In this document: one piece after another, positions 11,846 to 62,550 of the stretch
Layout: the number at the start of each line of letters is the position of its first letter
Numbering within the stretch: the stretch's first letter is position 1
Virus record (IMG/VR): IMGVR_UViG_3300045988_162372
Length of the DNA stretch: 64,000 nucleotides
Source of the DNA: a virus
Direction: 5' to 3' (one strand)
Notes under the pieces: model-generated
The model's database searches: none
Told to the model about the DNA's origin: nothing
The model's input: only the letters and a program-made list of their open reading frames with translations
Program-made: the position numbers and the translations under genes

Positions 11846-12238
11846 ATGAAAAATTTAACATTAAACAATGTGCGAATTGCATGGAATGAAAGTAAGAATA
11901 GTGAATTCTTAAAAACTAAAATGGTTGTGTATAAGTTGGTATTTCCAGATAATACTTGCTATGTAGGATTGACATCACTCACTATGTATGAAATGCTTTC
12001 AAATCTATGTAAGTATTATCATCAGGGAATGAGTAGAATTAATCAAAAAATAAAAGATTATCGTTCTTTCCTTGCTGAAGTGCTTTATGAAGCGGAAGAT
12101 AAAAATGATGCCGAGGATTATAAAAAATATGCAATTTCTAAAATAGTTAAAGAAATTGCACAGAAAGGGCATCTAAGAAAATACCACCATTTACAAGATG
12201 ATAATATTCTAAAAGTCTTATTAAACGATAGGTGGTAA
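11846..12238 (+). CDS. GIY-YIG-like domain protein (weak)
   Basis: VVYKLVFPDNTCYVGLT ... FLAEVLYEAED...DYKKYAISK resembles the GIY-x10-YIG ... E core, but the conserved Arg is not obvious. Confidence 0.35.
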   Translation: MKNLTLNNVRIAWNESKNSEFLKTKMVVYKLVFPDNTCYVGLTSLTMYEMLSNLCKYYHQGMSRINQKIKDYRSFLAEVLYEAEDKNDAEDYKKYAISKIVKEIAQKGHLRKYHHLQDDNILKVLLNDRW

Positions 12239-12973
12239 ATTCTCTGTAAATTTATTTATTCTTTCGTTAGTCATATCAACATATATTTTGAATTTTTCAA
12301 AACCAATATATTCAAAGTTATGTTGTAATGCAGCAAGAGCAACCGTACCACTACCCATAAATGGGTCTAAGACTATTATATTGTTATTCTCTTTTGATGG
12401 GATACAATCCATAATATTGTTAGGCAAGTCTATTGGGAATGGTGCGGGATGCTTTGTATTTTTTTCAAATGGGAATGACCATATTTCGTTTTTGTATTTT
12501 GTCGTAAGGCTACGATAAAAATTAGGTTTAGTTGTTTTTGTTAGCCAAAATACTAATTCAGTCATTGGTAGGAAACGACAAGTATTGACGTTATTCGTAC
12601 TTCCCCTATCCCATATAATTTCTTGTCTGATTTTGAATTTTGTTTTGAACAGCCATTGATAAGGTGATACTATTTCACCTTTATGTATTCTGTTTTTATG
12701 ATTGTAAAACATTGATCCGTCAGACTTTAAGACTCTGAAACATTCATTTAAGAAATTTATTTGCCATTTTTGGTATTCATCTTCTGGAATATTATCGACA
12801 TTTACATCATCATTGTAATCTATCGTTCCTTTCCATTTCTTACCTTTTTGTATACCGTTAAGACCTGCTTTATTGTAAGGTGGCGAAGTAATGATTAAAT
12901 CTATTGAATTATCATCCAATAATTTCAGGCCATCCATCACATCTATATTATATATTCTGTTTGTTTCTAACAT
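12221..12973 (-). CDS. beta-class DNA methyltransferase (N4-cytosine or N6-adenine)
   Basis: motif IV IITSPPYN precedes motif I LDPFMGSGTV; only minus-strand gene inside the plus-strand block, 3' ends overlap 11846..12238 by 18 nt. Confidence 0.9.
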   Translation of the reverse strand: MLETNRIYNIDVMDGLKLLDDNSIDLIITSPPYNKAGLNGIQKGKKWKGTIDYNDDVNVDNIPEDEYQKWQINFLNECFRVLKSDGSMFYNHKNRIHKGEIVSPYQWLFKTKFKIRQEIIWDRGSTNNVNTCRFLPMTELVFWLTKTTKPNFYRSLTTKYKNEIWSFPFEKNTKHPAPFPIDLPNNIMDCIPSKENNNIIVLDPFMGSGTVALAALQHNFEYIGFEKFKIYVDMTNERINKFTENLPPIV

Positions 12974-21078: not shown

Positions 21079-21645
21079 ATGGGAAAACTAATAATATCAG
21101 AAAGCCGTTTGAAACAAATAATAAAGGAAGAAGTCTCTAAGTTAATCAAAGAAACATCTCAAAAATATAAGACTATTTCTATTGATGCGCCTTCGAACAA
21201 AAAGCCAATAGATAATTCAGTCAAAGTATTTTTGGCAGGAACTATTGATGCTGACACTGGAAGTGAGGATTGGCAGCACAAAATTTGTAAAAGAATAGAA
21301 GATACCACTAACAATAAATACAATATCACAATATACAATCCACGAAGAGAGGAATTCCCTGATAGCGGAAGCTCAGAAGTGAGAAGACAAATCAAGTGGG
21401 AACATAAGCACATGGATGATGCAGATTTGATAGTTATGAATATATTAGAGGATTCCAAAAGTCCTATAAGCCTTATGGAAATCGGTATGTATGCAGAGAG
21501 CGGAAAATTGGTGGTGTTCTGTAAGCCTGGTTTTTATCGTTATGATAATGTTCAAATGGTTTGTAAGAAATATAACGTGCCTTTACATAACACAAATGAT
21601 ATTGATGAGATTTGTAAATTAATTTTAAATTATAAAAAGAAATGA
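21079..21645 (+). CDS. nucleoside 2-deoxyribosyltransferase-like (DNPH1/Nuc_deoxyri_tr2-like) protein
   Basis: VFLAGTID..W..IYNPRR..IKWEH..ADLIVMN..SPISLMEIGMYA pattern. Confidence 0.6.
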   Translation: MGKLIISESRLKQIIKEEVSKLIKETSQKYKTISIDAPSNKKPIDNSVKVFLAGTIDADTGSEDWQHKICKRIEDTTNNKYNITIYNPRREEFPDSGSSEVRRQIKWEHKHMDDADLIVMNILEDSKSPISLMEIGMYAESGKLVVFCKPGFYRYDNVQMVCKKYNVPLHNTNDIDEICKLILNYKKK

Positions 21646-24110: not shown

Positions 24111-24320
24111 ATGGGCGAAGCATTTAAAGAATTTCAAAAAGAAGTACGTGGGACACTTGAAACACTTTTAATCGTGTTCATTGTTCTGAAGCTAACAGAC
24201 CTAATAAATTGGTCTTGGGTGTGGGTTTTAGCTCCATTTTGGATACCTGCATGTGTGGCAATAGTCGGAGTAATAATATATTTAATTATTTTCATCTGTA
24301 ATAAAGACATTAATGAGTAA
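24111..24320 (+). CDS. small membrane protein
   Basis: 69 aa, two hydrophobic helices. Confidence 0.55.
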   Translation: MGEAFKEFQKEVRGTLETLLIVFIVLKLTDLINWSWVWVLAPFWIPACVAIVGVIIYLIIFICNKDINE

Positions 24321-24975
24321 CACAAAATATCCAAGAACATACCATTTTCCATTTTCACCAGGTGCTACAAGCGACGATAAAATAGTTGATGAGGAATGGT
24401 TTGAATATTTCAAAGGTAAAGAATTAGTTATCACTGAAAAACTTGACGGTTCTAATACTGCCATAATGCAGAGTGGTGTATATTCTCGTTCACATGCCGC
24501 ACCATCAGTAAATGAATGGGATAAATATCTCTTTAGGCATGGTGGTATTTTCGACAAGATTAAGCCTTTAATAAGTGAGGATGAAATTATATACGGAGAA
24601 AATATGTATGCCGTTCATTCCATTGAATATGAGCATCTTCCTGATTATTTCTTTGTATTTAATATCCGTAATAGTGAAGAATATTATTCTTGGGATGAAC
24701 TTGAAGAAATGTGTGAAATCATCGGTTTGAAGCATGTTCCACTGCTTGATAGAGCAGTATTTAATAAGCCAGAGGACTTACAGAATACAATACTTGAACT
24801 TATGAAAAATGGTTCAACCTTTGGTAATACTATTGAAGGTGTTGTAGTCAGAGTAGCTGAAAGATTTTCGACACAAGATTTCAAACATAATGTAATAAAA
24901 TATGTGCGAGCAAACCATGTTCAAACTGATATTCATTGGACAAGGAATTGGAAACAGGCAAAATTGAATCCTTAA
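24313..24975 (+). CDS. ATP-dependent RNA ligase family protein (stand-alone nucleotidyltransferase domain)
   Basis: motif I EKLDGSN, III IYGENMY, IV FFVFNI, V EGVVVRV, then KYVRANH. Confidence 0.75.
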   Translation: MSNTKYPRTYHFPFSPGATSDDKIVDEEWFEYFKGKELVITEKLDGSNTAIMQSGVYSRSHAAPSVNEWDKYLFRHGGIFDKIKPLISEDEIIYGENMYAVHSIEYEHLPDYFFVFNIRNSEEYYSWDELEEMCEIIGLKHVPLLDRAVFNKPEDLQNTILELMKNGSTFGNTIEGVVVRVAERFSTQDFKHNVIKYVRANHVQTDIHWTRNWKQAKLNP

Positions 24976-25398: not shown

Positions 25399-25815
25399 AT
25401 GAATGTAGAAAATAAGAAAATTTGGGATGAAATTTTCCAAAAGCAGCCACCTGTAAACAATGATGATTGTTGTGTAATGTGTGAGGGTGAGAATGGCGAA
25501 TATATACCTGCAACTCCACTTGGTTTTGATGACGAGCAGAAAACATTTGATGCTTTGAAAGAAATCATCGAAACAGCTATTAAAGTCAAGAAATATAAAA
25601 CTTGGCATATAGGAAGTGGACTTGTAGAAACTTATACTGAAGATAAATCTCCCATTGAAGAGTTCGATGTTGTTTATCTTTTTTCAAAATCCTGGGAAGA
25701 GCCATTGTTCCCTGTTTTGGTTAAAGAGATTACTGACAAAGTGATTAAAGTTCAGTGGATAGGTGGAAAAGAGAATGAGGATATTATTAATAAGGAAATT
25801 CCTTACAAACAATAA
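25399..25815 (+). CDS. hypothetical protein
   Basis: 138-aa ORF; no motif recognised. Confidence 0.55.
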   Translation: MNVENKKIWDEIFQKQPPVNNDDCCVMCEGENGEYIPATPLGFDDEQKTFDALKEIIETAIKVKKYKTWHIGSGLVETYTEDKSPIEEFDVVYLFSKSWEEPLFPVLVKEITDKVIKVQWIGGKENEDIINKEIPYKQ

Positions 25816-25837: not shown

Positions 25838-25885
25838 AAAATGCTGTGATATGCGACAAATATCATAGCATTTTTACTTTTTTAA
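25838..25885 (+). terminator. rho-independent terminator
   Basis: 15-bp stem AAAATGCTGTGATAT / ATATCATAGCATTTT (one G-U) then T-rich tail. Confidence 0.7.
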
Positions 25886-25895
25886 CATTATAAAT

Positions 25896-25926
25896 TTTGA
25901 TTTCTGTGTTGATTTCACTATCTTTG
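25896..25926 (+). promoter_or_regulatory. Bacteroidota-type promoter (-33/-7)
   Basis: TTTG-N19-TATCTTTG upstream of ATG 25957. Confidence 0.65.
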
Positions 25927-25956
25927 CACTTAGTTAATATAAAATATAAATATAAT

Positions 25957-27162
25957 ATGGAACAAATTATCAAACATTTTACAGACAATGACGCTTATAC
26001 GTTTACTTGTCAATACTACATATTGAAGACATATCCTCGTGCTGAAGTAGAATATAAATTCTTTGATAGGAATCATACAAAGTATCCGAAAGGCTTTGCC
26101 GAGCTATTACAAGAACAGGTGAATTACATGAAAGATGTGATTATCACAGACGAAGAGATTGCATTTATGTCTAAGAATATGTATTATCTTCCTTTATGGT
26201 ATTTTACTTTCTTGAAAGGTTATAGATTTAACCCTAACGAAGTAACTATTTCACAAGATAATGAGGGTCATCTTGATATTGCGGTAAAAGGAAAGTGGTT
26301 TTCAACGATTATGTGGGAAATGCCATTACTTTCTTGTATTTCTGAATTGATGCATAAACTTAATGGTGATGAGGATAAATATAATTTAGCAACAGAATAT
26401 TGGAAAAATTATGATAAAATGACCAAAGCACTTCAAAATGGCTTAATCATCTCCGATATGGGAACAAGACGCAGATTTTCTTATAATTATCATCACAATG
26501 TAATTAGATCTTTTGTTGAAGCATCTGAAAAATCAATGGAAGAACTTTATAGTTACGGAGAATTTGTAGGAACATCAAACGTATGGCTTGCCAAAAGATA
26601 TAATTTAAGACCAATCGGTACGATGTCTCATCAAATTATTTCGTTTGAAGAAACTGTTAGTGGTATCTTTGAATGTAATAATCAAACAATGTCTAAATGG
26701 AGTGAATGTTATGATGGTTTAAACGGAACATATCTCTATGATTGTTTTGGTGATAAAGTATTCTTTAACAATTTCCAAACAAAATATGCAAAATTATTTG
26801 ATGGATTAAGAGTAGATAGTGGTGACGAGTTTGAACAAATAGAAAAAATCATTGATAAATATAAGTCTTTGGGAGTTGATCCTAAGACAAAAACTGTCGT
26901 ATTCAGCAATGGGTTGAATTTGGATAAAGCATTGGAAATACATAAATACATTGGTGGAAGAGTTAGAGATACATATGGTATCGGCACATTCTTTACTTGT
27001 GATATTGAGAATGTTAAACCTTCAAATATTGTAATCAAATTGGTAAAAGGGAGAATTACTGAACAACGTGAATGGCATGATTGTGTGAAGCTCTCCTGTG
27101 ATAAAGGAAAGACACTGGGTAATCAAGAGAAATGTAACTATTTGTCTAACATTATTAATTGA
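25957..27162 (+). CDS. pncB: nicotinate phosphoribosyltransferase
   Basis: 401 aa from ATG 25957; FTDNDAYTF, RFNPNEVTISQDNEGHLDIAVKGKW..IMWEMPLLSCISE aligns by eye with E. coli PncB ([36 protein letters not shown]). Confidence 0.85.
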   Translation: MEQIIKHFTDNDAYTFTCQYYILKTYPRAEVEYKFFDRNHTKYPKGFAELLQEQVNYMKDVIITDEEIAFMSKNMYYLPLWYFTFLKGYRFNPNEVTISQDNEGHLDIAVKGKWFSTIMWEMPLLSCISELMHKLNGDEDKYNLATEYWKNYDKMTKALQNGLIISDMGTRRRFSYNYHHNVIRSFVEASEKSMEELYSYGEFVGTSNVWLAKRYNLRPIGTMSHQIISFEETVSGIFECNNQTMSKWSECYDGLNGTYLYDCFGDKVFFNNFQTKYAKLFDGLRVDSGDEFEQIEKIIDKYKSLGVDPKTKTVVFSNGLNLDKALEIHKYIGGRVRDTYGIGTFFTCDIENVKPSNIVIKLVKGRITEQREWHDCVKLSCDKGKTLGNQEKCNYLSNIIN

Positions 27163-27169
27163 TGAAATT

Positions 27170-27979
27170 ATGAAAAATAACAAACTTATACTTTGTGGAA
27201 TTTTTGGAGATATTATCGGAAAGCATTTCGAGTTTTTGAGAATAGCCAATAAGACAAAAGACTTTGAATTGTTTAGTAAAGATTCAACATACACAGATGA
27301 TACAATGTGTACGTTGGCTGTAATGAAGTGGCTCATTGATGATGTAAAGAAGCCCTTAGCACCTATTATGCGTGAAACATGTAATGTTGAACCATATAGA
27401 GGATATGGTGGAATGTTTCGTAAATGGTTACATGATGAAACTATGAGTGCCTACGGCAGTTTTGGGAATGGCAGTGGAATGCGAGTTGCACCTGTAGGTT
27501 GGTATGCCAAGACGGAAGAAGAGTGTCTTGAACTTGCAAAGCAATCTGCGATAATCACACATAATCATCCAGAGGGTATAAAGGGTGCGCAAGCTATTGC
27601 ATTGTCTGTATTTATGGCAAAGAATGGTAAGAGCAAACAAGATATTAAAGAAAGAATAACAGAGTTGTTCCACTATAATTTGGATAGAACACTCGATGAA
27701 ATTCGCCCTCACTATCATTTTGATGTAACTTGTCAAGGCTCTGTTCCAGAAGCAATTATTTCTTTCCTTGAAAGTACATCCGTCGAAGATGCTGTAAGAA
27801 ATGCTGTTTCACTTGGTGGTGATACTGACACACAAGGAATAATGGCAGGAGCTATTGCAGAAGCATATTACAAAGATTATGGAGATAGCATTATCTATGA
27901 CAAGACGTTGGAATATCTTCCACAAAAACATCTTGATGTAATAAAGAAATTTAACGAGAAAGTAAAAAATGCACAGTAA
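27170..27979 (+). CDS. ADP-ribosylglycohydrolase (ARH/DraG family)
   Basis: ATG 27170; GDIIGKHFEF, YTDDT, GNGSGMRVAPVG, THNHPEGIKGAQA, GGDTDTQGIMAGAIAEAYY. Confidence 0.85.
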   Translation: MKNNKLILCGIFGDIIGKHFEFLRIANKTKDFELFSKDSTYTDDTMCTLAVMKWLIDDVKKPLAPIMRETCNVEPYRGYGGMFRKWLHDETMSAYGSFGNGSGMRVAPVGWYAKTEEECLELAKQSAIITHNHPEGIKGAQAIALSVFMAKNGKSKQDIKERITELFHYNLDRTLDEIRPHYHFDVTCQGSVPEAIISFLESTSVEDAVRNAVSLGGDTDTQGIMAGAIAEAYYKDYGDSIIYDKTLEYLPQKHLDVIKKFNEKVKNAQ

Positions 27980-28880
27980 TAGATTTATTGTTAAGGAAGA
28001 ACTTTCTGTATCTGATACAGTTGTAAAAATAACAAATGAAATATATACCCAATTGCTTAATAAATTAAGTATTGGAAAATCTTTTATTTCAAAAGAACGA
28101 AATGTTATAATTAAAAAAGGTATTTTTGATTATCAAACAGCAGGAAAACTCAAGAATACATCTTTTATTAAAGTAAAATATGTCGTTTATTATTTTAATG
28201 ATGAACAAGAACATCAAGCATATATGAAATACGGTTATTTCAGAATGAATTCTTCTGCTGATTATGAAAATAGGGTAATTAATTTATATTTATCAATGGT
28301 AGATAACAAACCTACGATTGATTTCAAGAGTGATATACAACACGAAGTTAATCATATATTCCAATATGATAATGGTCAGCAAAAGGATGAGGATTTCTAT
28401 AAAAAGATTATTGATTTGAACAAAAGTAAGGTTAAAATGGATAGAATCATCGCTCGTGCGTTGTATTACACTTTCCCAACGGAACAGGATTCTTTTGTTT
28501 CTCAATATTATGCTTATTTAAAACGAAATAATATCCCTATCAAACAAGCAATTAATTATCGTTATGATAAAAATTGTCCTTATTATGATTTTGATACTCT
28601 TTTTGATAATATTGATGATATAAGTGGAGAAATAACTGATGAATATACACAAGATAAATTAGGTATCAGTTCTAAAAAATTATTCAACATCTTGAATAAT
28701 GCAGATGATAGATTTACTAACAAATTAGGAAAAGTAATAATGCGTTATGTTCAAGAAAAAGAACTAAATGAAGATTTCGAACACAGCGAAATTCATCTTA
28801 AAATTGATCCTCGTTTATCATTTGTATTAGAATGTTATAAGAAAGGAATTAATGAAGAAGAAAGTGAGTATTTTGAATAA
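27969..28880 (+). CDS. HExxH (gluzincin-like) protein, paralog of 38651..39694
   Basis: QHEVNHIFQ followed about 40 aa later by YYTFPTEQDSF; overlaps ARH gene end by 11 nt (same operon). Confidence 0.45.
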   Translation: MHSNRFIVKEELSVSDTVVKITNEIYTQLLNKLSIGKSFISKERNVIIKKGIFDYQTAGKLKNTSFIKVKYVVYYFNDEQEHQAYMKYGYFRMNSSADYENRVINLYLSMVDNKPTIDFKSDIQHEVNHIFQYDNGQQKDEDFYKKIIDLNKSKVKMDRIIARALYYTFPTEQDSFVSQYYAYLKRNNIPIKQAINYRYDKNCPYYDFDTLFDNIDDISGEITDEYTQDKLGISSKKLFNILNNADDRFTNKLGKVIMRYVQEKELNEDFEHSEIHLKIDPRLSFVLECYKKGINEEESEYFE

Positions 28881-28888
28881 TATGTGTA

Positions 28889-28921
28889 ATGACTTAGAAA
28901 ATTAGTCCTAAGTCATTTTTA
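28889..28921 (+). terminator. rho-independent terminator
   Basis: ATGACTTAG / CTAAGTCAT 9-bp stem followed by TTTTT. Confidence 0.7.
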
Positions 28922-28939
28922 TATTATTAACAGTTCTAA

Positions 28940-28971
28940 TTTGTTTCTTTCATTGAAAAATGTTATCTTTG
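28940..28971 (+). promoter_or_regulatory. Bacteroidota-type promoter (-33/-7)
   Basis: TTTG-N20-TATCTTTG, about 98 nt upstream of ATG 29069. Confidence 0.65.
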
Positions 28972-29068: not shown

Positions 29069-30079
29069 ATGGAAAATAATGAACTTTTGTATGACAAGGA
29101 TTTGGCTAATCGCTTTGTAAGTGATTATAAGTTGCCTATACAGCTAACTGATAAGAAGTATTTCTTTTATTTTCTTTCATTATATGAGAAAGAATACAAA
29201 TCATTAACAAAATATATACAGCTTTGTAATTTAATCAAAGAGAAGTATTACGATTCACCTAAGCTGTTCTTGGAGAAATATTACGAAGTGCGTGATGATA
29301 TTATAAAAACTGTCGAGGCAAGTAAGGCATATCAGAAGTTTAATAATATGGATATGTCTGTGTTTTCTATTAAAAATAAAAAGAATATCACAACAAACAA
29401 TATCTATAATGAGAATAATGCAGGGCGTATTTTCGTTTCATTTGACTTAAAGAAGGCTAATTTCCAAGCATTGAAGTATGTTAACCCTGACATCGTATTA
29501 AATGCTGATACTTATCAGGATTTTATTAAGAAATTCACAGATTTGGATTATGTTGCAGAAAGCAAGTATACAAGGCAAGTAGTGTTTGGCAAAATGAACC
29601 CAAAACGTCATATTACTGTTGAAAAGTATATGATTGATAAGGTATACGAATATATCACCGAAACCCATCATCTTACGAATTGTGTATCTATGTCAAATGA
29701 CGAACTTGTATTTGATATGGGTGAGGCTAAAAAACTTGACAGTCTTGCTATTCATAGTATTAATATTACTTGTGAGATGATTAGACAATTCATCCAAACA
29801 ATGTTGGGATTTGAAATGAATTTAGAAGTTTTCAAACTGCATAAATTACAACTTTGCTGTAACAAGTTCAAGAGAAGCCCTTATTATTATAAGGAATATT
29901 TGAATACAGAAGAACCAAAAGGAAAACTGATGTGCGTACCTATGAATTACTTTGCAATTGTATATAAGCTGTTTAATAATCTACCTTTGCAAGAAGAAGA
30001 CTATCATTTCGATTATGAAGGATTGGATAGCAAATATTGTGAGAATTTTTACCTTCTAACTGATTTTCAAAATAACTAA
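29069..30079 (+). CDS. compact family-A-polymerase-like protein (tentative)
   Basis: IFVSFDLKKANFQAL (motif A-like), SKYTRQVVFGKMNP (motif B-like), SMSNDELVFDMG (compare Pol I QVHDELVFE), MNLEVFKL; only about 85 aa between the A and C aspartates. Confidence 0.4.
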   Translation: MENNELLYDKDLANRFVSDYKLPIQLTDKKYFFYFLSLYEKEYKSLTKYIQLCNLIKEKYYDSPKLFLEKYYEVRDDIIKTVEASKAYQKFNNMDMSVFSIKNKKNITTNNIYNENNAGRIFVSFDLKKANFQALKYVNPDIVLNADTYQDFIKKFTDLDYVAESKYTRQVVFGKMNPKRHITVEKYMIDKVYEYITETHHLTNCVSMSNDELVFDMGEAKKLDSLAIHSINITCEMIRQFIQTMLGFEMNLEVFKLHKLQLCCNKFKRSPYYYKEYLNTEEPKGKLMCVPMNYFAIVYKLFNNLPLQEEDYHFDYEGLDSKYCENFYLLTDFQNN

Positions 30080-30083
30080 ATAT

Positions 30084-31130
30084 ATGGATAATAATAAAAC
30101 AAGTATTATATTTTTTGGTTCTGGGGATTTTCCTTACCCTACATTTAAGACCATTGTAGAGAATGAAGTTTATGATGTGAAAGGTTTGGTTACTTCTCCG
30201 TATAAGCCGTATTTTTATTCTGAGACATTGAAAGATGTAGCAGAAAGAAACAATATACCTGTGTTTTCAACACATAAGCCAAATTGTGCAGAGCTTGTCG
30301 AATGGTTGAAAGAAAAGGAAACCGACATTTTCTGTGTGATTTCTTATAAATTCCTTTCAAATGATATATTGAGAATTCCAAAGATAACAGCATTTAATGT
30401 ACACGCTTCATTACTGCCACTACTTCGAGGTGCTGCCCCTATTAACTGGGCAATCAGATATGGTTTTAAAAATACTGGTTTAACCTCATTTGTATTAAAT
30501 GAACATATTGATTGCGGAGAGATTATAAATAATATAAGTATCCCGATTGAAAGTAATGATGATTATGGTGTAGTTTTCAATAGATTATCTGTTCTTAATG
30601 TTGGCTTTACCATTGAAACAATATCACGTTTAAGAAAGTCTGATTGGAGACGTTATTTAATACTTCAACCAGATCATATTGAAGATGATATGTTCATGAA
30701 TGCTCCAAGATTGAATAATGATAATTGTACATTAAATACACATATATTTTCTGCATTTAATTATGCAATACCACAACTTTATGATGTGATTAGGTCGCTA
30801 TCACCAAATATAGGGTTAAATATTACATTAAGGGCAATGAATGAAGAAAGAAATGGTTTCTGTTGCCTTAAAAAATATGATGCCAAAATATATAAAGCTA
30901 AACTTTTTCCTGAGATACCAGAAGAACATAAAAGTTATTGCAAGAGTTATTCAAACGTGGTAACTGATGGTAAATCTTTCATGTACTTAGTTAATAATTT
31001 AAACACACAAATTATATCCATTGAAGAAATACAATTAGCAGGAAAGAAAAAACTTAATATAAAGGATTTTGTTGCAGGTTTTCAATGGGCAAGAGATAAA
31101 AATGTATATTTGCTAATAACTGGTAGATAA
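30084..31130 (+). CDS. methionyl-tRNA formyltransferase-like formyltransferase
   Basis: IIFFGSGDF..., NVHASLLPLLRGAAPINWAI, TGLTSFVLNEHIDCGEI match the Fmt N-terminal domain; C-terminal extension present. Confidence 0.75.
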   Translation: MDNNKTSIIFFGSGDFPYPTFKTIVENEVYDVKGLVTSPYKPYFYSETLKDVAERNNIPVFSTHKPNCAELVEWLKEKETDIFCVISYKFLSNDILRIPKITAFNVHASLLPLLRGAAPINWAIRYGFKNTGLTSFVLNEHIDCGEIINNISIPIESNDDYGVVFNRLSVLNVGFTIETISRLRKSDWRRYLILQPDHIEDDMFMNAPRLNNDNCTLNTHIFSAFNYAIPQLYDVIRSLSPNIGLNITLRAMNEERNGFCCLKKYDAKIYKAKLFPEIPEEHKSYCKSYSNVVTDGKSFMYLVNNLNTQIISIEEIQLAGKKKLNIKDFVAGFQWARDKNVYLLITGR

Positions 31131-31146
31131 CAAAAAACTTAAATAA

Positions 31147-32358
31147 ATGACATTAAATTTAACGTATAAAGGAAATAAATGGTTGAGTGGGGCAATTCCT
31201 GCTCTTTTGATACACTGCTGCATTGGCAGTGTATATTGTTGGTCTTTGATTAAGAACAACATCGCAATTGAAATGGGTGTGGCTTCTTCCCAAATTGAAT
31301 TTGCATTTTCATTGGCAATTTTCTTTTTGGGCATGAGTGCTGCGTTCTGTGGCAGATTCATCGAAAAGAACGTGAAGTATTCTTCACTTATTTCAGCGAT
31401 TTGCTTTACTTCTGGATTGTTCTTGACAACAGTTGCGATGCATTTGCATAGTATACCCTTGCTGTTCTTATCTTACGGATGTATCATGGGTATCGGATTG
31501 GGTATAGGCTATTTAAGTCCAGTCAAAACATTGATGTTATGGTTCAGCGAACATAAGGGCTTGGCAACTGGTATTGCTATTAGTGGCTTTGGATTATCAA
31601 AAGCAATTCTTTCACCATTCATTGAATGGTGTAATGCAAATTATTCCATTTATGTAACATTGTGGGCTATTTCATTGATAAGTATGTTCTGTATGTTATT
31701 GGCTTCAGCACTTATTAAAAAACCTGAAGGATGGGTGGAAACTACTGATAAATTTTCGATAAAGGATGTGTGGAAAATAATTACAAATTCAGAGTATATT
31801 AAGATATGGCTGATATTTTACATTAACATAACCTTGGGTTTATGTCTGATAAGTTTTGAGAAAGATTTATGTCTTACTAACGGCATAGTTGCTGTGGGCA
31901 TTATATCGTCATTAACGGCATTGTTCAATACTATTGGTAGATTTGGCTATTCTTCCTGTTCGGACTTTTTAAAACGTAAGGAAATAATCTATGTTATTAT
32001 ATTTGCAAGCAGTTTGATAGTATGCGCCATATATGGCTTAAATCTGATTAATATTGGGGTTGCAACAATACTATTGCTTTGCGTTATTAACGCAGGATAC
32101 GGTGGAGGGTTTTCTACTTTACCCACATTACTACAATCCAAATTCGGTATGGGGAATATCTCAACTATTCATGGTTTAGCATTAAGTGCTTGGGCGTGGG
32201 CTGGGCTTTCAGGAAATCAGTTATCTAATCTTGTGATTAATAGAATGGGATTAGGATATGAACACCTGATAACAATAGTTGCTTGTTTATATTGCATTAG
32301 CTTGATAATTACATTAACTATCAAAAATAAAATATGGAAAATAAAGAGAAACAATTAA
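31147..32358 (+). CDS. MFS transporter (oxalate/formate antiporter-like)
   Basis: 403 aa, about 12 hydrophobic helices; N-terminal GSVYCWS motif typical of OFA/YhjX-type MFS. Confidence 0.75.
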   Translation: MTLNLTYKGNKWLSGAIPALLIHCCIGSVYCWSLIKNNIAIEMGVASSQIEFAFSLAIFFLGMSAAFCGRFIEKNVKYSSLISAICFTSGLFLTTVAMHLHSIPLLFLSYGCIMGIGLGIGYLSPVKTLMLWFSEHKGLATGIAISGFGLSKAILSPFIEWCNANYSIYVTLWAISLISMFCMLLASALIKKPEGWVETTDKFSIKDVWKIITNSEYIKIWLIFYINITLGLCLISFEKDLCLTNGIVAVGIISSLTALFNTIGRFGYSSCSDFLKRKEIIYVIIFASSLIVCAIYGLNLINIGVATILLLCVINAGYGGGFSTLPTLLQSKFGMGNISTIHGLALSAWAWAGLSGNQLSNLVINRMGLGYEHLITIVACLYCISLIITLTIKNKIWKIKRNN

Positions 32359-38650: not shown

Positions 38651-39694
38651 ATGGATATATATGATATAATTGAGGAAGAATATGCCTCTTATGTGTTTAG
38701 AAACAAGACATTAAATACATTGGGTACATTCCTATTTGAAAGCCGTAGAATAAATGATGAGGTGAATGAGCTAACTAATAAAATATCTGATTATATTATG
38801 CAGAATCCATCTGTTGAATTACAAACAGGTACAAATGGAAAGATGTATTTTAAATATTTACCTAAATTTGATATAGGAACGAATTATTTCATGCTCTATC
38901 CTAATATCATAATAAAAATAATTTTATCAGATAAAAAAGGCAAATCAGACAGTTCGATTTCACCTTCCTCCAAAGAAGTTCCATTTAAAAATAATAAATT
39001 AAATAACCCTACTATTATAATTAGGCATACCAATACACGGCCTGTAATTGATAAAACTTTATTAGAAAATGCTTTAAGCCATGAAATAATGCATGGTTAT
39101 CGAATGTTACAAATATATTTGAGAAATGAAAAAGATAACGGTAATAGAGACGTTAAACGTCAAAAACTTTATAATAACATTTCTGATTTTACTAATGATG
39201 ATGAATTTGTACATCTTATTAAAACATCATATTATATTACGGATATAGATGAAATCAATGCTAATGCAGCTTCTGAAGCTCATTATATATTATCAAACAA
39301 AAATATCCATTTTTATAATTATAAAGAATATCTTAACAAAATACCTTTTTATGATAAAATAAATGAAATTAGAAATAATATTAATCTTATTAAAAATTTA
39401 ATCGCAAATAACGAAGAAAATAAAAAGATATTTGGACAAATAATTTCACTCGTCATTTATCAAGGAAAATATGAAAATAATCCATTAATTGCATTTAATA
39501 AGTTATATAATAGATTACAAAGAACATATACATATTGTATAAGACGTTTTTATGATATATTATGGTCAGCATTAGATAAAGATAATAGAGATAGAGTTTC
39601 TCCAATATATCAAAATAAAATGACACAAGAGGAATTGCATCGAGAATTATTAAAGTTATTAAAGGAAAGCAAAAGAAATGTTAAGAAAAAGTAA
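38651..39694 (+). CDS. HExxH (gluzincin-like) protein, paralog of 27969..28880
   Basis: LSHEIMHGY followed about 45 aa later by YYITDIDEINA. Confidence 0.45.
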   Translation: MDIYDIIEEEYASYVFRNKTLNTLGTFLFESRRINDEVNELTNKISDYIMQNPSVELQTGTNGKMYFKYLPKFDIGTNYFMLYPNIIIKIILSDKKGKSDSSISPSSKEVPFKNNKLNNPTIIIRHTNTRPVIDKTLLENALSHEIMHGYRMLQIYLRNEKDNGNRDVKRQKLYNNISDFTNDDEFVHLIKTSYYITDIDEINANAASEAHYILSNKNIHFYNYKEYLNKIPFYDKINEIRNNINLIKNLIANNEENKKIFGQIISLVIYQGKYENNPLIAFNKLYNRLQRTYTYCIRRFYDILWSALDKDNRDRVSPIYQNKMTQEELHRELLKLLKESKRNVKKK

Positions 39695-39790: not shown

Positions 39791-41122
39791 ATGAAATTTG
39801 TAGAATTATTTGATAACGATATGAAACCAAAGTGGGATATAATAGAAAACATCCCACAGTTTGCAGCACTTAAGACAACCAAGCAAAGCAATACTTGGCA
39901 TAAAGAGGGTGATGCTCTTAGGCATACACGGCTTGTTGTTGAAAATATGCAAAGAGAATTGGATGAACAGAATATTGACAATCATTCTGCATATTATCTT
40001 GTAATGATGTCTGCCGCACTTTGTCATGACTTAGGCAAGGCAACTTCAACCAAATGGGATAAAGAGAAGAATGACTATGTATGTAATCATCATGGACAAG
40101 CAGGTGAGAATATTACCCGTATGTTGTTTTATGATGAGAAATTTATCATAAGGGAACTTGTATGCTATATGGTACGTTGGCATATGAATTTACATCATAT
40201 CTTGGATGATGAGGAAAAAGTTGATGAGAAACTGATAAATATGGCTCACGGATGGGTATCAATTCAAGATATGTTACTTCTCAACAAATGTGATTCTCTT
40301 GGAAGCCAGAATGACATTGAAACAAGAGAATTCCTTGAGAACAGATGGGATACCATTAAGGAAAGAGCAGAGAAGTTGGATGTATTTGATATGGTCTATG
40401 ATGATTATAATACGAAACATATATGTGAAAATCTGAATACTGCCCTAAATGCATCTAATCCAATTGCTCCATTTTCATTTATGACACTAAATTGGAGGGA
40501 TGTGCGAGAGTCTTGTAGTAATATATTGAGGCATACTCCTATAAATTGGAAAACAAATAATATAAAGATATTAAATCAATTCACTGTCTTTATGATGGTA
40601 GGTATTCCTGGAAGTGGTAAAGATACTATTATACGAAAATACTTAAATGATATTCCAACTGTATGTAGAGATGATATCCGCACTGAAATAGGTATTCAAG
40701 GAGAGAAGCCTATGGGTAATAAAGAACAGGAGAAGAAAGTGACTCAAATATTCGAGGAAAGAATGTTGGAATATTGCAAACAAGGTAAGAGTTTTGTTAT
40801 TAATAATACAAACCTTAAAAAGCAATACCGTAACAGATTCTTGGATATCATAAAGCCTTATAAACCAGTCGTGATTTATATTTATGTGGAAGCTCCGTCA
40901 ATAGTTGATAATTTTGCAAGACGTGCTGGACAAATAGATAAGGATATAATACGCAGGATGGCTTCAAACTTTGATTTCCCTTATCCTACGGAATATACTA
41001 CTTTGTGGCTCGATATACAAGGTGAACCACAATTCACTGAAATATATGGTAACGCAATGATGAGTCATATAATTCAAGATATGATGCAACCAAGAAAGAA
41101 GAAAGATGAACAAGAACATTAA
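39791..41122 (+). CDS. HD-Pnk: HD phosphoesterase fused to P-loop polynucleotide 5'-kinase
   Basis: N-terminal H..(ALRHTRLV)..CHDLGKA..HHG HD domain; C-terminal MMVGIPGSGKDT Walker A, CRDDIR, NNTNL; same architecture as bacterial HD-Pnk end-healing enzymes. Confidence 0.8.
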   Translation: MKFVELFDNDMKPKWDIIENIPQFAALKTTKQSNTWHKEGDALRHTRLVVENMQRELDEQNIDNHSAYYLVMMSAALCHDLGKATSTKWDKEKNDYVCNHHGQAGENITRMLFYDEKFIIRELVCYMVRWHMNLHHILDDEEKVDEKLINMAHGWVSIQDMLLLNKCDSLGSQNDIETREFLENRWDTIKERAEKLDVFDMVYDDYNTKHICENLNTALNASNPIAPFSFMTLNWRDVRESCSNILRHTPINWKTNNIKILNQFTVFMMVGIPGSGKDTIIRKYLNDIPTVCRDDIRTEIGIQGEKPMGNKEQEKKVTQIFEERMLEYCKQGKSFVINNTNLKKQYRNRFLDIIKPYKPVVIYIYVEAPSIVDNFARRAGQIDKDIIRRMASNFDFPYPTEYTTLWLDIQGEPQFTEIYGNAMMSHIIQDMMQPRKKKDEQEH

Positions 41123-41802: not shown

Positions 41803-42489
41803 ATGGAATATACTCTTGAAACAAGTTCAGAAACTTTTATTAATAAAATAAAAAAATTTCTTCATTATGGAAACATAATGATAGATTTGGAAACATTGTC
41901 TACCAGAACCAATGCATCCATAATAAGCGTTGCTGCCGTAGAATTTGGATTAAATGGTGATACTGGCAGGGAAATGATATTAAAAATCAAACCATCAGAA
42001 TGGGGAAAATATGATAGACATATTGATGGTAATACAATCGCATGGTGGATGGGACAAGATGCAGAGGCTGTTAAAAACCTTTTTGCAAAGGACGGGGAAG
42101 ATTTCACGTTGCTTGATGCCTTATCTCATTTGTCTGATTTTGTAAAAGAATGTGATATGCCTATACCAATTACGCAAGAACAAGAAATGACTGCCAGTTT
42201 TATGAGCAGTTTCAGATACAGTGATGTAAAAGACAAAAGGATTAAAGTATGGGGAAATGGTTCTACAATGGATATTACAATTCTTCAATCTGCTTATGAG
42301 TATTTCAATATGCAGATACCGTGGCAATATTGGGCTGTAAATGATGTGCGTACTATTGTGGATTTAAACCCTGAAATTAAAAAGAACTGTACTTTTGAAG
42401 GTGTGAAACATAATCCTATTGACGATTGTAATTATCAGATTAAATATATGACTGAAACAATTAAAAATATTAGAGAAAATAGATATTAA
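41803..42489 (+). CDS. DEDDh 3'-5' exonuclease (Rv2179c-like exoribonuclease type)
   Basis: MIDLETLS (DxE), WGNGSTMDITIL (D), HNPIDDCNYQ (H-x4-D). Confidence 0.75.
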   Translation: MEYTLETSSETFINKIKKFLHYGNIMIDLETLSTRTNASIISVAAVEFGLNGDTGREMILKIKPSEWGKYDRHIDGNTIAWWMGQDAEAVKNLFAKDGEDFTLLDALSHLSDFVKECDMPIPITQEQEMTASFMSSFRYSDVKDKRIKVWGNGSTMDITILQSAYEYFNMQIPWQYWAVNDVRTIVDLNPEIKKNCTFEGVKHNPIDDCNYQIKYMTETIKNIRENRY

Positions 42490-45353: not shown

Positions 45354-45887
45354 ATGAAAGGAATAATTGCAATAAAAAATATATCGGATGTAATCACAAA
45401 TTCTTCAAGCGAAGTGTTTATGTTACAAACTGATGGTGTCATTAAAGGTATTAAAAATAACATTGAAAAATATCACAATGAACATATGTGGTATCACAAC
45501 GATTTTTCTGAACTTCCTGATGATATTAAACAGCTATTAGGCGGTGAGGATATTTTAAATGAAGCGGAAAAAATGCTCAATGAATCTTCTGGCGAAGGTG
45601 GAGAAATTAACATTTATGATTGGGAGGACGCATATAACGGATATTGCAAAATATACAAAAAACATTCCAAGAGTTTCACACCCGAACAGTGGGCAAAAAA
45701 AATTGATATACCATTGGAAGAATTGAAGAAAATCATTGTGGTTGATGTGGATTGGGCAGCTAAAAGTACTATCTCCATGTTAAAAGAACGTTATAATGTT
45801 GTCTTTGAAGGAGATATTTATTACGAATCAAAATATAGTGATGCCTTTGCGTATGCTTCCTATGCTAACGGAGAAAACTATCTATAA
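45354..45887 (+). CDS. ITNSSSE-motif family protein, copy 1
   Basis: N-terminus MKGIIAIKNISDVITNSSSEVFML; C-terminal IIVVDVDW. Confidence 0.6.
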   Translation: MKGIIAIKNISDVITNSSSEVFMLQTDGVIKGIKNNIEKYHNEHMWYHNDFSELPDDIKQLLGGEDILNEAEKMLNESSGEGGEINIYDWEDAYNGYCKIYKKHSKSFTPEQWAKKIDIPLEELKKIIVVDVDWAAKSTISMLKERYNVVFEGDIYYESKYSDAFAYASYANGENYL

Positions 45888-61941: not shown

Positions 61942-62550
61942 CTAATCTCTCCACAATTTATTATCGACAATAAATTTCCTAACCTTATCAGGAACATAAA
62001 AGTTTATAGTCTTACCCTGCCTTATTTCTCTTCTGATAAATGTTGAACTCAGGTTTGAAAGAGGACAATTATGCAATATCTTTATATTTTTGATATTGTA
62101 TTTGTTTTCCAAATTATTTATTTCTTTCTCGCAATCAATATTACCTCTTGGGATAACAATAATATTAACCATTGATAACAATTCATCAATTTTGTACCAA
62201 TTATCCAACTGTTTCACATTATCAGCACCAACAATCAGAGAGAACTCCACATTATAAGACAATTCCTGTAATTTTTTAACTGTATTATAAGTATATGTCG
62301 GTCTTGATAACATTTCTTCAATGTAAGAATAAGACATTCGTCTATTTTCGATATCACAAATAGATAACTCAATCATGTTACATCTCATACTGAAATCTGC
62401 TAATTCGTTACCAGTATATTTAAATGGTGCATCTGGGCTTGGTATAAATAATACTTTGTCAACATTAGCATTGTTTAATACATAGTTAGCGATCATTAAA
62501 TGCCCGTTATGAATAGGATTAAATGTTCCGATAAATAAAGCTGTTGTCAT
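61942..62550 (-). CDS. nadD: nicotinate/nicotinamide-mononucleotide adenylyltransferase
   Basis: FIGTFNPIHNGHL (H/TxGH) and SSTFIRREI (ISSTxxR) motifs. Confidence 0.85.
   Translation of the reverse strand: MTTALFIGTFNPIHNGHLMIANYVLNNANVDKVLFIPSPDAPFKYTGNELADFSMRCNMIELSICDIENRRMSYSYIEEMLSRPTYTYNTVKKLQELSYNVEFSLIVGADNVKQLDNWYKIDELLSMVNIIVIPRGNIDCEKEINNLENKYNIKNIKILHNCPLSNLSSTFIRREIRQGKTINFYVPDKVRKFIVDNKLWRD

What the first reader, a model, noticed from the sequence alone, without database searches (positions are those of the whole stretch)
25896..28921. Self-contained pncB / ADP-ribosylglycohydrolase / HExxH-protein operon (NAD salvage plus ADP-ribose removal)
A promoter (25896-25926) and two strong terminators (25838-25885 upstream, 28889-28921 downstream) delimit a three-gene unit. 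It contains nicotinate phosphoribosyltransferase, an ARH/DraG-type ADP-ribosylglycohydrolase, and a 303-aa HExxH protein whose start overlaps the ARH stop by 11 nt.

A nadD-type adenylyltransferase lies at 61942-62550 on the other strand. No nadE was seen in the window.

Established knowledge: many anti-phage systems (SIR2- and TIR-based) deplete NAD+, and some phages carry NAD+ reconstitution pathways. ARH enzymes reverse ADP-ribosylation or release ADP-ribose.

This set is nicotinate-based (Preiss-Handler steps 1-2). It is physically coupled to an ARH and to an uncharacterised putative metalloenzyme, which could be a missing step or a regulator. That combination is not one I recognise as described.
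Basis: partly seen in the sequence, partly recalled or inferred. Interest (0 to 1): 0.7.

Follow-up and report, generated by a model that had tools for sequence, protein, structure and literature searches.

The report
Phage NAD-salvage and ADP-ribose-hydrolase cassette
A giant virus of gut Bacteroidota carries a small, separately switched three-gene unit, with an enzyme that rebuilds the coenzyme NAD from nicotinate, an enzyme that cuts off ADP-ribose, and an unknown metal-binding protein; the first two fit an already described theme of phages defending their NAD supply, and only the third is truly uncharacterised.

Summary
A Bacteroidota-type promoter (25896-25926) and two hairpin terminators bracket three co-directional genes. 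They are a genuine PncB (25957-27162), an ARH3-like ADP-ribosylglycohydrolase (27170-27979), and a 303-aa HExxH protein (27969-28880) that overlaps the ARH stop by 11 nt. A NadD lies at 61942-62550(-). No nadE is in the window.

pncB plus nadD (plus nadE) in gut jumbo phages of Bacteroidota has already been described bioinformatically (Li et al. 2024). ADP-ribose-processing genes beside or inside phage NAD+ operons also have precedents (NADAR with NadV/NadM; RyDEP within NARP1).

Related phages show a fixed backbone, pncB ... u336-fmt, with a variable slot between. The slot holds ARH alone, HExxH alone (one or two copies), or both, so neither gene needs the other.

The HExxH protein belongs to a multi-copy family of about 200 clusters, found so far only in metagenomic and viral contigs. 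Its H-E-x-x-H...E residues are conserved and its predicted structure is confident, but it matches no solved structure and no Pfam, PHROG or PADLOC family. It is more likely a zinc hydrolase or protease than a missing NAD step.

I read the unit as an early counter-defence cassette. That role is not experimentally tested.

The parts
25838..25885 (+). Intrinsic-terminator-like hairpin (15-bp stem, 7-nt loop) plus U-run. It closes the preceding unit (gene 25399-25815).
   Evidence: Terminator scan. RNA fold -17.3 kcal/mol, z = -5.4.
25896..25926 (+). Bacteroidota-type promoter: TTTG (-33) then 19 nt then TATCTTTG (-7).
   Evidence: Exact match to TTTG-N17-21-TAnnTTTG. There are 21 matches in the window against 4.2 expected. 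A promoter sits in the same position in front of pncB in L008 and L032.
25957..27162 (+). pncB, nicotinate phosphoribosyltransferase (401 aa).
   Evidence: Pfam NAPRTase_N plus NAPRTase. TIGR01514 351.5 bits, above the 269.55 cut-off. Best solved relative is 2IM5, E 1.9e-79, with catalytic motifs kept.
27170..27979 (+). ARH3-like ADP-ribosylglycohydrolase (269 aa).
   Evidence: PF03747, E 1e-33. phrog_6572. Best solved relative is ARH3 (6g1p), E 1.5e-17. The FE, YTDDT and GGDTDT motifs align.
27969..28880 (+). HExxH protein (303 aa). It belongs to an uncharacterised family seen only in metagenomic and viral contigs. It is a predicted zinc hydrolase with a C-terminal helix-turn-helix-like region.
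   Evidence: Invariant H125, H129 and E172, and E126 in at least 90% of 105 sequences. 197 representative clusters. AF2 pLDDT 89, pTM 0.80. No PDB, Pfam, PHROG or PADLOC match.
28888..28922 (+). Terminator-like hairpin (10-bp stem, 10-nt loop) plus UUUUU.
   Evidence: RNA fold -11.6 kcal/mol, z = -3.9. Sequence shown.
28940..28971 (+). Next Bacteroidota-type promoter. It starts the downstream unit u336-fmt-MFS.
   Evidence: The equivalent promoter is conserved in L008, L022, L032 and L034.
29069..32358 (+). Downstream syntenic unit: unknown 336-aa protein (29069-30079), Fmt-like formyltransferase (30084-31130), and MFS transporter of the oxalate/formate-lactate family (31147-32358).
   Evidence: u336 and fmt follow the pncB slot in L006, L008, L009, L022 and L034.
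38651..39694 (+). Second, distant HExxH paralogue (347 aa).
   Evidence: hhalign against the family profile: probability 60%, E 9e-5, over the HExxH...K..LY...YYT..E core. A 57% homologue sits two genes upstream of pncB in L032.
61942..62550 (-). nadD, nicotinate-nucleotide adenylyltransferase (201 aa).
   Evidence: PF01467. TIGR00482 159.6 bits, above the 112.45 cut-off.

Best explanation
This is an early cassette, transcribed by the host RNA polymerase, in a jumbo phage that infects Bacteroidota. It occupies a conserved but flexible accessory slot: pncB, then [ARH and/or HExxH], then u336-fmt.

Shown:
- The promoter-to-terminator unit is real.
- PncB and NadD are bona fide family members with catalytic motifs intact.
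- ARH has an intact ARH3-type active site.
- ARH and HExxH come and go independently next to pncB in related phages.

Inferred:
- PncB makes NaMN from nicotinate and PRPP, and the phage NadD makes NaAD. A NadE from the host, or from elsewhere in the phage, completes NAD+. This props up the NAD+ pool that host NADase-type immunity (SIR2, TIR and similar) or the phage's own NAD-consuming enzymes deplete.
- ARH hydrolyses O-linked ADP-ribose made by host NAD-consuming immunity, either on macromolecules or in ADPr-derived signals.
- The HExxH protein is a zinc-dependent hydrolase, most probably a peptidase, and belongs to a diversifying, multi-copy phage family. It acts on a host or phage protein and is not a step in NAD synthesis.

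The three genes are co-expressed because they serve the same early counter-defence programme, not because they form one pathway.
For: Unit boundaries.

PncB:
- Pfam domains, equivalog score and motifs aligned to solved PncBs.
- A second pncB lineage occupies the same slot in L032 and L034. It is only 39% identical to the window's PncB. It scores 409 bits against P. gingivalis PncB, against 270 bits for the window's. This argues for selection to keep a pncB at the head of this unit.

NadD.

ARH:
- Motifs.
- pncB-ARH adjacency is kept down to 65% ARH identity.
- A 26-aa ARH remnant lies between pncB and HExxH in L029. This suggests ARH was ancestral there and was later lost.

Variable slot:
- Window, L008 and L022 versus L032 and L034 versus L006 and L009 versus L029.
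- An IS605-type insertion is tolerated in the slot in L008.

HExxH:
- Conserved metal-site residues.
- Topology of a beta-sheet, then the HExxH helix, then a helix bearing the conserved Glu.
- Repeated sub-threshold hits to the SprT-like, BSP, DUF6782 and DUF2268 zincin families, and a Spartan SprT hit.
- Tandem duplicates (L006, L009, L014) and a second paralogue in the window.

Counter-defence flavour of the neighbourhoods:
- Tad2-like, Macro and LigT genes in relatives.
- RNA ligases and other RNA-repair genes, including Thg1, in the window.

Precedents: NARP1-3, RyDEP inside NARP1, and NAD-jumbo phages.
Against: - Nothing here is experimental.
- The Preiss-Handler route starts from nicotinate, whereas NADases release nicotinamide. 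A nicotinamidase is therefore needed and none was identified. No nadE is in this 64-kb window.
- The pncB-ARH pairing is confined to this phage clade. 0 of 84 bacterial and 0 of 79 other viral loci of the same ARH subfamily have pncB within 5 kb.
- The ARH subfamily is widespread in cellular genomes with no conserved partner, so its substrate is open.
- Iyer et al. argue that phage ARG domains prefer macromolecular adducts.
- The HExxH protein reaches no curated threshold in any family library. A confident model finds no zincin in the PDB: best E 0.35, TM below 0.2.
- Synteny among related phages can be inherited rather than selected.
Confidence: 0.5

Rival explanations
1. Metabolic augmentation rather than counter-defence. 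PncB and NadD are auxiliary metabolic genes that raise NAD+ for the phage's own NAD-consuming enzymes (ligases, RNA-repair chemistry). ARH clears ADP-ribose by-products or reverses the phage's own ADP-ribosylation.
For: Li et al. 2024 propose that NAD-jumbo phages both make and consume NAD+. The window is packed with RNA-repair genes: a 2H/CPD-like protein, several RNA ligases, a PNK-like kinase and Thg1. Iyer et al. link NAD+ to viral RNA repair.
Against: The Pfam scan found no ADP-ribosyltransferase, KptA/Tpt1, sirtuin or NAD-dependent ligase in the window. ARH is lost in some lineages, as expected of a host-dependent accessory gene. The experimentally tested phage NAD+ pathways all act as counter-defence.
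Confidence: 0.2
2. Co-transcribed mosaic without functional coupling. The slot after pncB is simply a permissive insertion hotspot. ARH and HExxH are unrelated cargo whose adjacency to pncB carries no functional meaning.
For: ARH and HExxH are present or absent independently, and an IS605-type element is inserted in the slot in L008. Distant HExxH homologues lie next to a terminase, a methyltransferase, an IMPDH-like gene, LigT or NDT-like genes. No other ARH locus has pncB nearby.
Against: Linkage of pncB with HExxH-superfamily members recurs in four different arrangements: downstream, tandem, flanking on both sides, and the HExxH2 type upstream. pncB-ARH adjacency survives replacement by a 39%-identical pncB. 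The promoter and terminator boundaries of the unit are conserved.
Confidence: 0.2
3. The HExxH protein is the missing metabolic step: a metal-dependent amidohydrolase such as a nicotinamidase. It would convert the nicotinamide released by host NADases into the nicotinate that PncB uses.
For: PncB needs nicotinate, while NADases yield nicotinamide. No PncA-like gene is in the window. HExxH family members lie immediately beside pncB in the window, L006, L009 and L029. An HExxH...E site is an amide-hydrolysing site by chemistry (inference).
Against: The family occurs in several copies per genome, in tandem or as distant paralogues. It diverges much faster than PncB: 42-49% identity against 81% in L006. 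L032 and L034 keep pncB-ARH without an HExxH gene in the slot. Many members are far from any pncB. The C-terminal helix-turn-helix-like region suggests a macromolecular partner. Known nicotinamidases have a different fold (established knowledge).
Confidence: 0.07

Closest known systems
'NAD-jumbo phages' with Preiss-Handler genes (Li et al., Microbiome 2024, PMC11662467; Kuafu clade, Bacteroidota hosts)
   Same: A gut jumbo-phage setting (relatives on contigs of 216-338 kb) with Bacteroidota signals. The phage encodes pncB and nadD, and NAD+ synthesis is proposed as a possible counter to NAD+ depletion.
   Different: That work is a gene-content survey. It does not mention ADP-ribosylglycohydrolases or the HExxH family. 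Here nadD is 35 kb away on the other strand, not clustered with pncB, and nadE was not seen in the window. Membership of the Kuafu clade could not be checked.
NARP1 (Adps + Namat), NARP2 (NamPT + NMNAT), NARP3 (PnuC + NadR)
   Same: Phage-encoded rebuilding of NAD+ as a metabolite-level counter to SIR2, TIR and other NADase defences, carried in compact early operons.
   Different: None of the defining enzymes is present. The phosphoribosyltransferase passes the PncB equivalog, not NamPT or Namat, and no PRPS-like, PnuC or NadR gene is in the window. The substrate is nicotinate, which NADases do not release directly. A PncB-based route has not been validated as counter-defence; the founding NARP paper (Osterman et al. 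preprint) mentions neither pncB nor nicotinate.
RyDEP glycosidase inserted in a NARP1 operon (Lopez Rivera et al. 2026, PMC13232231)
   Same: The architecture matches: an ADP-ribose O-glycosidic hydrolase inserted as variable cargo inside a phage NAD+-synthesis operon, and absent from close relatives (compared).
   Different: RyDEP has a RyR-repeat fold and ARH is unrelated. RyDEP's product, ADPR, feeds NARP1 directly, whereas ADPR is not a PncB substrate. Activity of this ARH on 2'/3'cADPR is untested.
Viral NAD+-ADPr network of Iyer, Burroughs, Anantharaman and Aravind 2022 (PMC9503650)
   Same: ADPr-processing domains (there NADAR) lie in phage neighbourhoods with NAD+ salvage genes. ARG/ARH domains occur in about 5% of jumbo phages. 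The network is linked to RNA repair.
   Different: That survey lists NadV, NadM and NadR as the phage NAD+ enzymes, not PncB or NadD. It reports NADAR rather than ARG beside salvage genes.
ARH3 (ADPRHL2/ADPRS), eukaryotic O-glycosidic ADP-ribosylhydrolase
   Same: It is the best solved relative (E 1.5e-17). The Glu of the FE motif, the TDDT motif and the GGDTDT metal-binding motif all align.
   Different: The phage protein is about 80 residues shorter (269 against about 350 aa). It belongs to a very large prokaryotic subfamily, with more than 7,900 hits, whose substrate is unknown and whose genomic context varies.
Minimal zincin / gluzincin metallopeptidases (SprT/Spartan, ImmA/IrrE M78, BSP, DUF2268, DUF6782; ArdC-type anti-restriction proteases)
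   Same: HExxH sits on a helix after a beta-sheet, with an invariant Glu on a later helix. Weak hits to these families recur. IrrE also combines a peptidase domain with a helix-turn-helix (my own knowledge).
   Different: No hit reaches a curated threshold. Foldseek finds no solved zincin despite pLDDT 89. The Glu is 43 residues after the second His. The conserved N-terminal EELSVSD segment and the C-terminal tail are unique to this family.

Membership tests
PncB / NAPRTase (TIGR01514) | N-terminal NAPRTase_N domain plus C-terminal phosphoribosyltransferase barrel | tested here: met
   PF17767, E 5e-32, and PF04095, E 1.6e-45.
PncB / NAPRTase (TIGR01514) | Score above the curated equivalog cut-off | tested here: met
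   351.5 bits against a cut-off of 269.55. The PRK05321 subfamily model scores 377.5 against 379, just below.
PncB / NAPRTase (TIGR01514) | Phospho-histidine and PRPP-binding motifs (GTRRRFS, GTxxH, DSGD, GIGT) | tested here: met
   All align with 2IM5 and 1YIR: DMGTRRRFS, IGTMSHQ, RVDSGD, YGIGTFFT.
PncB / NAPRTase (TIGR01514) | Nicotinate + PRPP to NaMN activity | not testable with these tools
   Needs an enzyme assay.
ADP-ribosylglycohydrolase (PF03747), ARH3-like | Family domain above Pfam's gathering score | tested here: met
   117.7 bits against 26.2. phrog_6572, E 2e-47.
ADP-ribosylglycohydrolase (PF03747), ARH3-like | Binuclear-metal acidic motifs (TDDT; GGDTDT) and the ARH3 catalytic Glu | tested here: met
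   YTDDT, SLGGDTDT and HFEF align to the ARH3 equivalents. E21, D43, D44, D218, D220 and T221 are invariant in 20 homologues.
ADP-ribosylglycohydrolase (PF03747), ARH3-like | Substrate (Ser-ADPr, PAR, OAADPr, cADPR isomers, Arg-ADPr) | not testable with these tools
   The DraG and Tri1 equivalogs score far below their cut-offs: 49.9 against 337 and 24.8 against 490.
NadD (TIGR00482) | Score above the equivalog cut-off, plus the GxFxPxHxGH and ISSTxxR motifs | tested here: met
   159.6 bits against 112.45. GTFNPIHNGH and SSTFIRREI are in the sequence.
Complete phage Preiss-Handler pathway (pncB + nadD + nadE) | NAD synthetase NadE encoded by the phage | tested here: inconclusive
   Not in this 64-kb window. 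The rest of the genome, over 200 kb, is not available.
NARP1 | PRPS-like Adps plus a NamPT-family Namat | tested here: not met
   No PRPP-synthetase-like gene is present. The phosphoribosyltransferase is a PncB equivalog with a NAPRTase_N domain.
NARP2 / NARP3 | NamPT plus NMNAT, or PnuC plus NadR | tested here: not met
   The Pfam scan of the window's ORFs found no NamPT, PnuC or NadR.
Zincin (Peptidase_MA-like) metallopeptidase | HExxH on a helix, with both His and the Glu conserved | tested here: met
   H125 and H129 are invariant, and E126 is present in at least 90% of 105 sequences. They lie on helix 119-134.
Zincin (Peptidase_MA-like) metallopeptidase | Third metal ligand (Glu, His or Asp) on a downstream helix | tested here: inconclusive
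   E172 is invariant and sits at the start of helix 170-186. The model coordinates could not be inspected to check the geometry.
Zincin (Peptidase_MA-like) metallopeptidase | Significant sequence match to a curated peptidase family | tested here: not met
   Only sub-threshold hits: SprT-like in 12 of 105 sequences (best E 0.0016), BSP in 12 of 105, and DUF6782 in 8 of 105. The PDB profile search gave Spartan at E 1.6.
Zincin (Peptidase_MA-like) metallopeptidase | Structural match to a solved zincin | tested here: not met
   Foldseek against the PDB with the pLDDT-89 model: best E 0.35, TM below 0.2, and no peptidase among the top 50. BFVD gave only weak hits to proteins labelled IrrE-like, SprT-like or metallopeptidase, E 0.8-1.9.

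The most novel reading that the evidence does not exclude
The cassette is a two- or three-layer answer to TIR/SIR2 (Thoeris-type) immunity in Bacteroidota.

- The ARH3-like enzyme would be a second class of glycosidase, structurally unrelated to RyDEP, that cleaves the ribose-ribose bond of 2'/3'cADPR signals. This is the same bond type that ARH3 cuts in poly(ADP-ribose).
- PncB and NadD would be a fourth, nicotinate-based phage NAD+ reconstitution route.
- The HExxH family would be a new-fold zinc hydrolase acting in the same conflict. It would either deamidate nicotinamide to feed PncB or proteolyse the NADase effector.
Probability: 0.12. Interest if true: 0.8.

Novelty: new variant of a known kind. 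Interest (0 to 1): 0.4.

Why it matters
Three phage NAD+ reconstitution pathways have been validated (NARP1-3), and none uses nicotinate. A PncB-headed early operon is kept in one slot across a clade of Bacteroidota jumbo phages, even after replacement by a different pncB lineage. That makes it a concrete candidate for a fourth route, in a host phylum where anti-phage immunity is little studied.

The ARH cargo gives a testable candidate for enzymatic removal of ADP-ribose adducts or ADPr-based signals in gut phages.

The HExxH family has about 200 clusters, occurs in several copies per genome, and has a confidently predicted structure with no solved relative. It is a well-defined piece of phage dark matter with an obvious active site to mutate.

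None of this overturns current ideas. It extends a known theme.

Tried and rejected
- DNA and protein searches of the INPHARED phage collection. The 3.2-kb region has no blastn match. The HExxH protein has no tblastn match. pncB matches only at 24-40% identity in 13 phage records, 4 of them huge 'uncultured phage' genomes of 0.46-0.74 Mb.
- HExxH against Pfam, PHROGs, NCBIfam and PADLOC, both as a single sequence and for every member of the alignments. Nothing came above threshold.
- Profile searches of PDB sequences. The best hits were FliA region 3/4 at E 0.15 and Spartan at E 1.6.
- Two AlphaFold models and three Foldseek searches.
- Longer family members (386-917 aa), looked at for informative fusion partners. 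None had a Pfam domain.
- Is the MFS transporter downstream a NiaP-type niacin permease? It is not. It belongs to the oxalate/formate-lactate family.
- Is the kinase-like domain fused to ARH in some phages a NadR-type nicotinamide-riboside kinase? It shows only generic P-loop kinase similarity.
- Do Tad2, Macro or LigT homologues of related phages occur in this window? None does.
- Is the pncB-ARH pairing general? It is rejected: 0 of 163 loci, and the bacterial loci have no conserved neighbour.
- A scan of GTDB genomes for the HExxH family with close patterns found nothing. The broader alignment was too divergent for the pattern scan.
- Genome-wide co-occurrence of HExxH with pncB could not be tested, because only up to 10 kb on each side of each contig hit is retrievable.

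Full report
**What is there.** The window has about 31% G+C. Genes run on the + strand up to about 55 kb and on the - strand after that. Between 25.8 and 28.95 kb the sequence shows the following, in order.

- A 15-bp hairpin followed by a U-run at 25838-25885. It folds at -17.3 kcal/mol, z = -5.4.
- A promoter at 25896-25926.
- Three + strand genes.
- A 10-bp hairpin followed by UUUUU at 28888-28922. It folds at -11.6 kcal/mol, z = -3.9.
- A second promoter at 28940-28971.

The promoters are not sigma-70-like; that scan is not enriched. They match the Bacteroidota form TTTG-N17-21-TAnnTTTG. This pattern occurs 21 times in the window against 4.2 expected, almost always just upstream of + strand genes. 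The core TATCTTTGCA is also enriched, 38 against 11.3.

The gene coordinates are 25957-27162, 27170-27979 and 27969-28880. The last overlaps the ARH stop by 11 nt. Its stated start coordinate, 25896, is where the promoter begins; pncB itself most likely starts at ATG 25957.

**The two recognisable enzymes.**

- Gene 1 carries both PncB domains and passes NCBI's PncB equivalog at 351.5 bits against a cut-off of 269.55.
- It aligns end to end with solved PncBs, best with 2IM5. The GTRRRFS, GTMSHQ (phospho-His), DSGD and GIGT motifs are intact.
- It is therefore PncB, not a NamPT- or Namat-type enzyme.
- Gene 2 is an ADP-ribosylglycohydrolase (PF03747, phrog_6572). Its best solved relative is ARH3, and the FE, TDDT and GGDTDT active-site motifs align. 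These residues are invariant in 20 homologues.
- The NadD at 61942-62550(-) passes its equivalog.
- I called 113 ORFs across the window and scanned them against Pfam, using concatenates for most. None matched NAD synthetase, NamPT, a PRPS-like enzyme, PnuC, NadR, PncA, an ADP-ribosyltransferase or KptA.
- The scan did show a dense set of RNA-repair and nucleotide-metabolism genes.

**The HExxH protein.** It has no hit in Pfam, PHROGs, NCBIfam or PADLOC.

- Homologues form 45 clusters at 90% identity. Nearly all are about 300 aa, and several lie on contigs of 200-340 kb.
- The exhaustive search gives 197 representative clusters.
- Across 105 diverse members, H125, Y166 and E172 are invariant. 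E10, E126, H129, G136, Y144, Y181, L184 and K252 are at least 90% conserved.
- With this deep alignment AlphaFold gives pLDDT 89 and pTM 0.80. The model has an N-terminal helix, a four-to-five-stranded sheet, the HExxH helix (119-134), and a helical bundle whose helix 170-186 begins with the invariant Glu.
- That topology, plus recurrent sub-threshold hits to the SprT-like, BSP, DUF6782 and DUF2268 families and to Spartan, points to a zincin-like hydrolase.
- Against that, Foldseek finds no solved relative (best E 0.35). Only weak matches appear among predicted viral structures.
- Residues 224-264 resemble a sigma-70 region-4 helix-turn-helix (FliA, E 0.15). This is only a lead.
- A second, distant paralogue lies at 38651-39694 (hhalign probability 60%, E 9e-5).
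- Tandem copies occur in L006, L009 and L014.

I file it as an uncharacterised family with a probable metal-hydrolase site. It is not a member of any named peptidase family.

**Is the trio a functional unit?** Context in related contigs answers this.

| Loci | Gene order |
|---|---|
| Window, L008, L022, L040 | pncB-ARH-HExxH-u336-fmt(-MFS); L008 has an IS605-type tnpB/tnpA insertion between ARH and HExxH |
| L032, L034 (ARH 65-70% identical) | pncB-ARH-u336-fmt, with no HExxH in the slot |
| L006, L009 (HExxH 49%) | pncB-HExxH-HExxH-u336-fmt, with no ARH |
| L029 | HExxH-u138-pncB-[26-aa ARH remnant]-HExxH-[26-aa u336 remnant]-fmt |

- The pncB of L032 and L034 is only 39% identical to the window's, and it is much closer to P. 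gingivalis PncB (409 against 270 bits).
- L032 also has an HExxH2-type paralogue two genes upstream of pncB.
- The promoter in front of pncB and the promoter in front of u336 recur in these loci.
- More distant HExxH homologues (26-41% identity) lie beside LigT, Macro/RNA ligase/NDT-like, methyltransferase/IMPDH-like, terminase or replication genes.
- The ARH subfamily is very large: more than 7,900 hits, at least 594 stretches in GTDB genomes across many phyla, and 363 in IMG/VR.
- Of 84 bacterial and 79 other viral loci of this subfamily, none has a pncB within 5 kb. No neighbour is conserved in bacteria.

So there is a conserved pncB-headed unit followed by u336-fmt, with a variable slot that holds ARH and/or HExxH. 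The pairing is clade-specific, and the two cargo genes are independently dispensable.

**Mechanism, with its status.**

- Shown: the unit boundaries, family membership and intact motifs of PncB, ARH and NadD, and the slot variability.
- Inferred: PncB and NadD, with a NadE from elsewhere, boost NAD+ from nicotinate.
- Inferred: ARH removes O-linked ADP-ribose produced by host NAD-consuming immunity.
- Inferred: HExxH is a zinc hydrolase, probably a protease, acting on a protein partner.
- Several features fit a counter-defence cassette better than a housekeeping pathway. These are the early host-type promoter, the accessory gain-and-loss pattern, the retention of a pncB in this slot despite lineage replacement, and the Tad2-like, Macro and LigT genes in relatives' neighbourhoods.
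- I put this reading at about 0.5.
- Its main weaknesses are threefold. Nicotinate is not what NADases release. No nadE or pncA was seen. Synteny among relatives may simply be inherited.

**Comparison with what is known.**

- Li et al. 2024 reported 174 gut 'NAD-jumbo phages', including a Bacteroidota-infecting clade with pncB-nadD-nadE clusters. They suggested counter-defence, without experiments and without mention of ADP-ribosylhydrolases.
- The experimentally validated routes are NARP1 (Adps + Namat), NARP2 (NamPT + NMNAT) and NARP3 (PnuC + NadR). None of their defining genes is present here. The founding NARP paper (Osterman et al. preprint) mentions neither pncB nor nicotinate.
- Iyer et al. 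2022 found ARG domains in about 5% of jumbo phages, and found NADAR domains beside NadV and NadM.
- Lopez Rivera et al. 2026 showed that RyDEP, a cADPR-isomer glycosidase, is inserted inside a NARP1 operon and is absent from a close relative. This is the closest architectural precedent for ARH in the pncB unit.

The finding is therefore a new variant of a known theme, with one truly uncharacterised component.

**Verdict.**

- Observation confirmed. Interpretation partly supported.
- Interest 0.4.
- The most novel reading not excluded has three parts: ARH as a new class of ADPr-signal glycosidase, a nicotinate-based 'NARP4', and HExxH as a new-fold hydrolase in the same conflict. I give it a probability of about 0.12. 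It would be of high interest if true.

Noticed in passing
window 8432-9157, 24313-24975, 39791-41122, 41803-42489, 45903-46580, 46623-48167, 59460-60257(-): An unusually rich RNA-repair set: a 2H / fungal tRNA-ligase CPD-like protein, an Rnl-type RNA ligase, an HD plus P-loop kinase (Pnkp/CCA-like), an Rv2179c-like 3'-5' exoribonuclease, a KxDG ligase-like protein (seen by eye only, no family hit), a DRB0094-type RNA ligase and a Thg1 tRNA-His guanylyltransferase. Together they suggest repair of host-cleaved tRNAs.
   Followed up: partly
window 30084-31130 and 31147-32358: An Fmt-like formyltransferase (TIGR00460 136 bits, below its cut-off) is followed directly by an MFS transporter of the oxalate/formate-L-lactate (MCT-like) family. 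A phage-borne carboxylate carrier is unusual. Whether it imports formate, lactate or the monocarboxylate nicotinate is unknown.
   Followed up: partly
window 29069-30079: A 336-aa protein with no family match always follows the pncB slot in relatives (54-99% identity in L006, L008, L009, L022 and L034). Only a 26-aa remnant is left in L029.
   Followed up: partly
window 38651-39694: A second HExxH protein (347 aa) is a distant paralogue of the one in the finding. It sits immediately upstream of the HD/kinase RNA-repair gene, and a 57% homologue lies near pncB in L032.
   Followed up: partly
window 45354-45887, 48231-48740, 49823-50224, 50242-50652: Four paralogous small proteins share an N-terminal 'SD(V/I)ITNSSSE(V/I)F' motif. 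The same family lies next to the ARH gene in another group of IMG/VR phage contigs (L170-L193).
   Followed up: no
window 3875-5095; L008 6151-7947; L001 6333-7873; L006 13040-14799: IS605/IS607-type TnpB (OrfB_IS605 plus Cas12f-like TNB) elements are common in this phage group. In L008 one is inserted exactly between ARH and HExxH.
   Followed up: partly
window 21079-21645 and 53449-53961: Two nucleoside 2-deoxyribosyltransferase-like genes (PF15891 and DUF4406). An NDT2 homologue directly follows the HExxH gene in L001 and L024.
   Followed up: no
L032 4829-5989, L034 4828-5988: A different pncB lineage occupies the same slot before ARH. It is 39% identical to the window's PncB and much closer to P. 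gingivalis PncB, which looks like in-situ xenologous replacement.
   Followed up: yes
L056 3775-5034; P0211/P0212 (L030 6001-7338); P0230-P0299: The ARH subfamily occurs fused to an N-terminal Nudix domain in a Bacteroidales MAG (my reading of the sequence, not scanned against Pfam). It is fused to a C-terminal AAA_28 P-loop kinase-like domain on long metagenomic contigs whose neighbouring genes look phage-like, and to DUF1810 in many metagenomic proteins.
   Followed up: partly
L001 14843-15130, L006 15844-16143: Tad2-like (anti-Thoeris sponge family, PF11195) genes lie 7 kb downstream of the HExxH gene in related jumbo phages. No homologue is in this window.
   Followed up: yes
window 43236-43826, 57590-58714(-), 12221-12973(-), 52206-53189: Other accessory genes: a ClpP-like protease, TelA, an N4/N6 DNA methyltransferase on the opposite strand, and a protein with a Cys-rich motif that looks radical-SAM-like (not confirmed by Pfam) and is conserved in other ARH-bearing phage contigs.
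   Followed up: no
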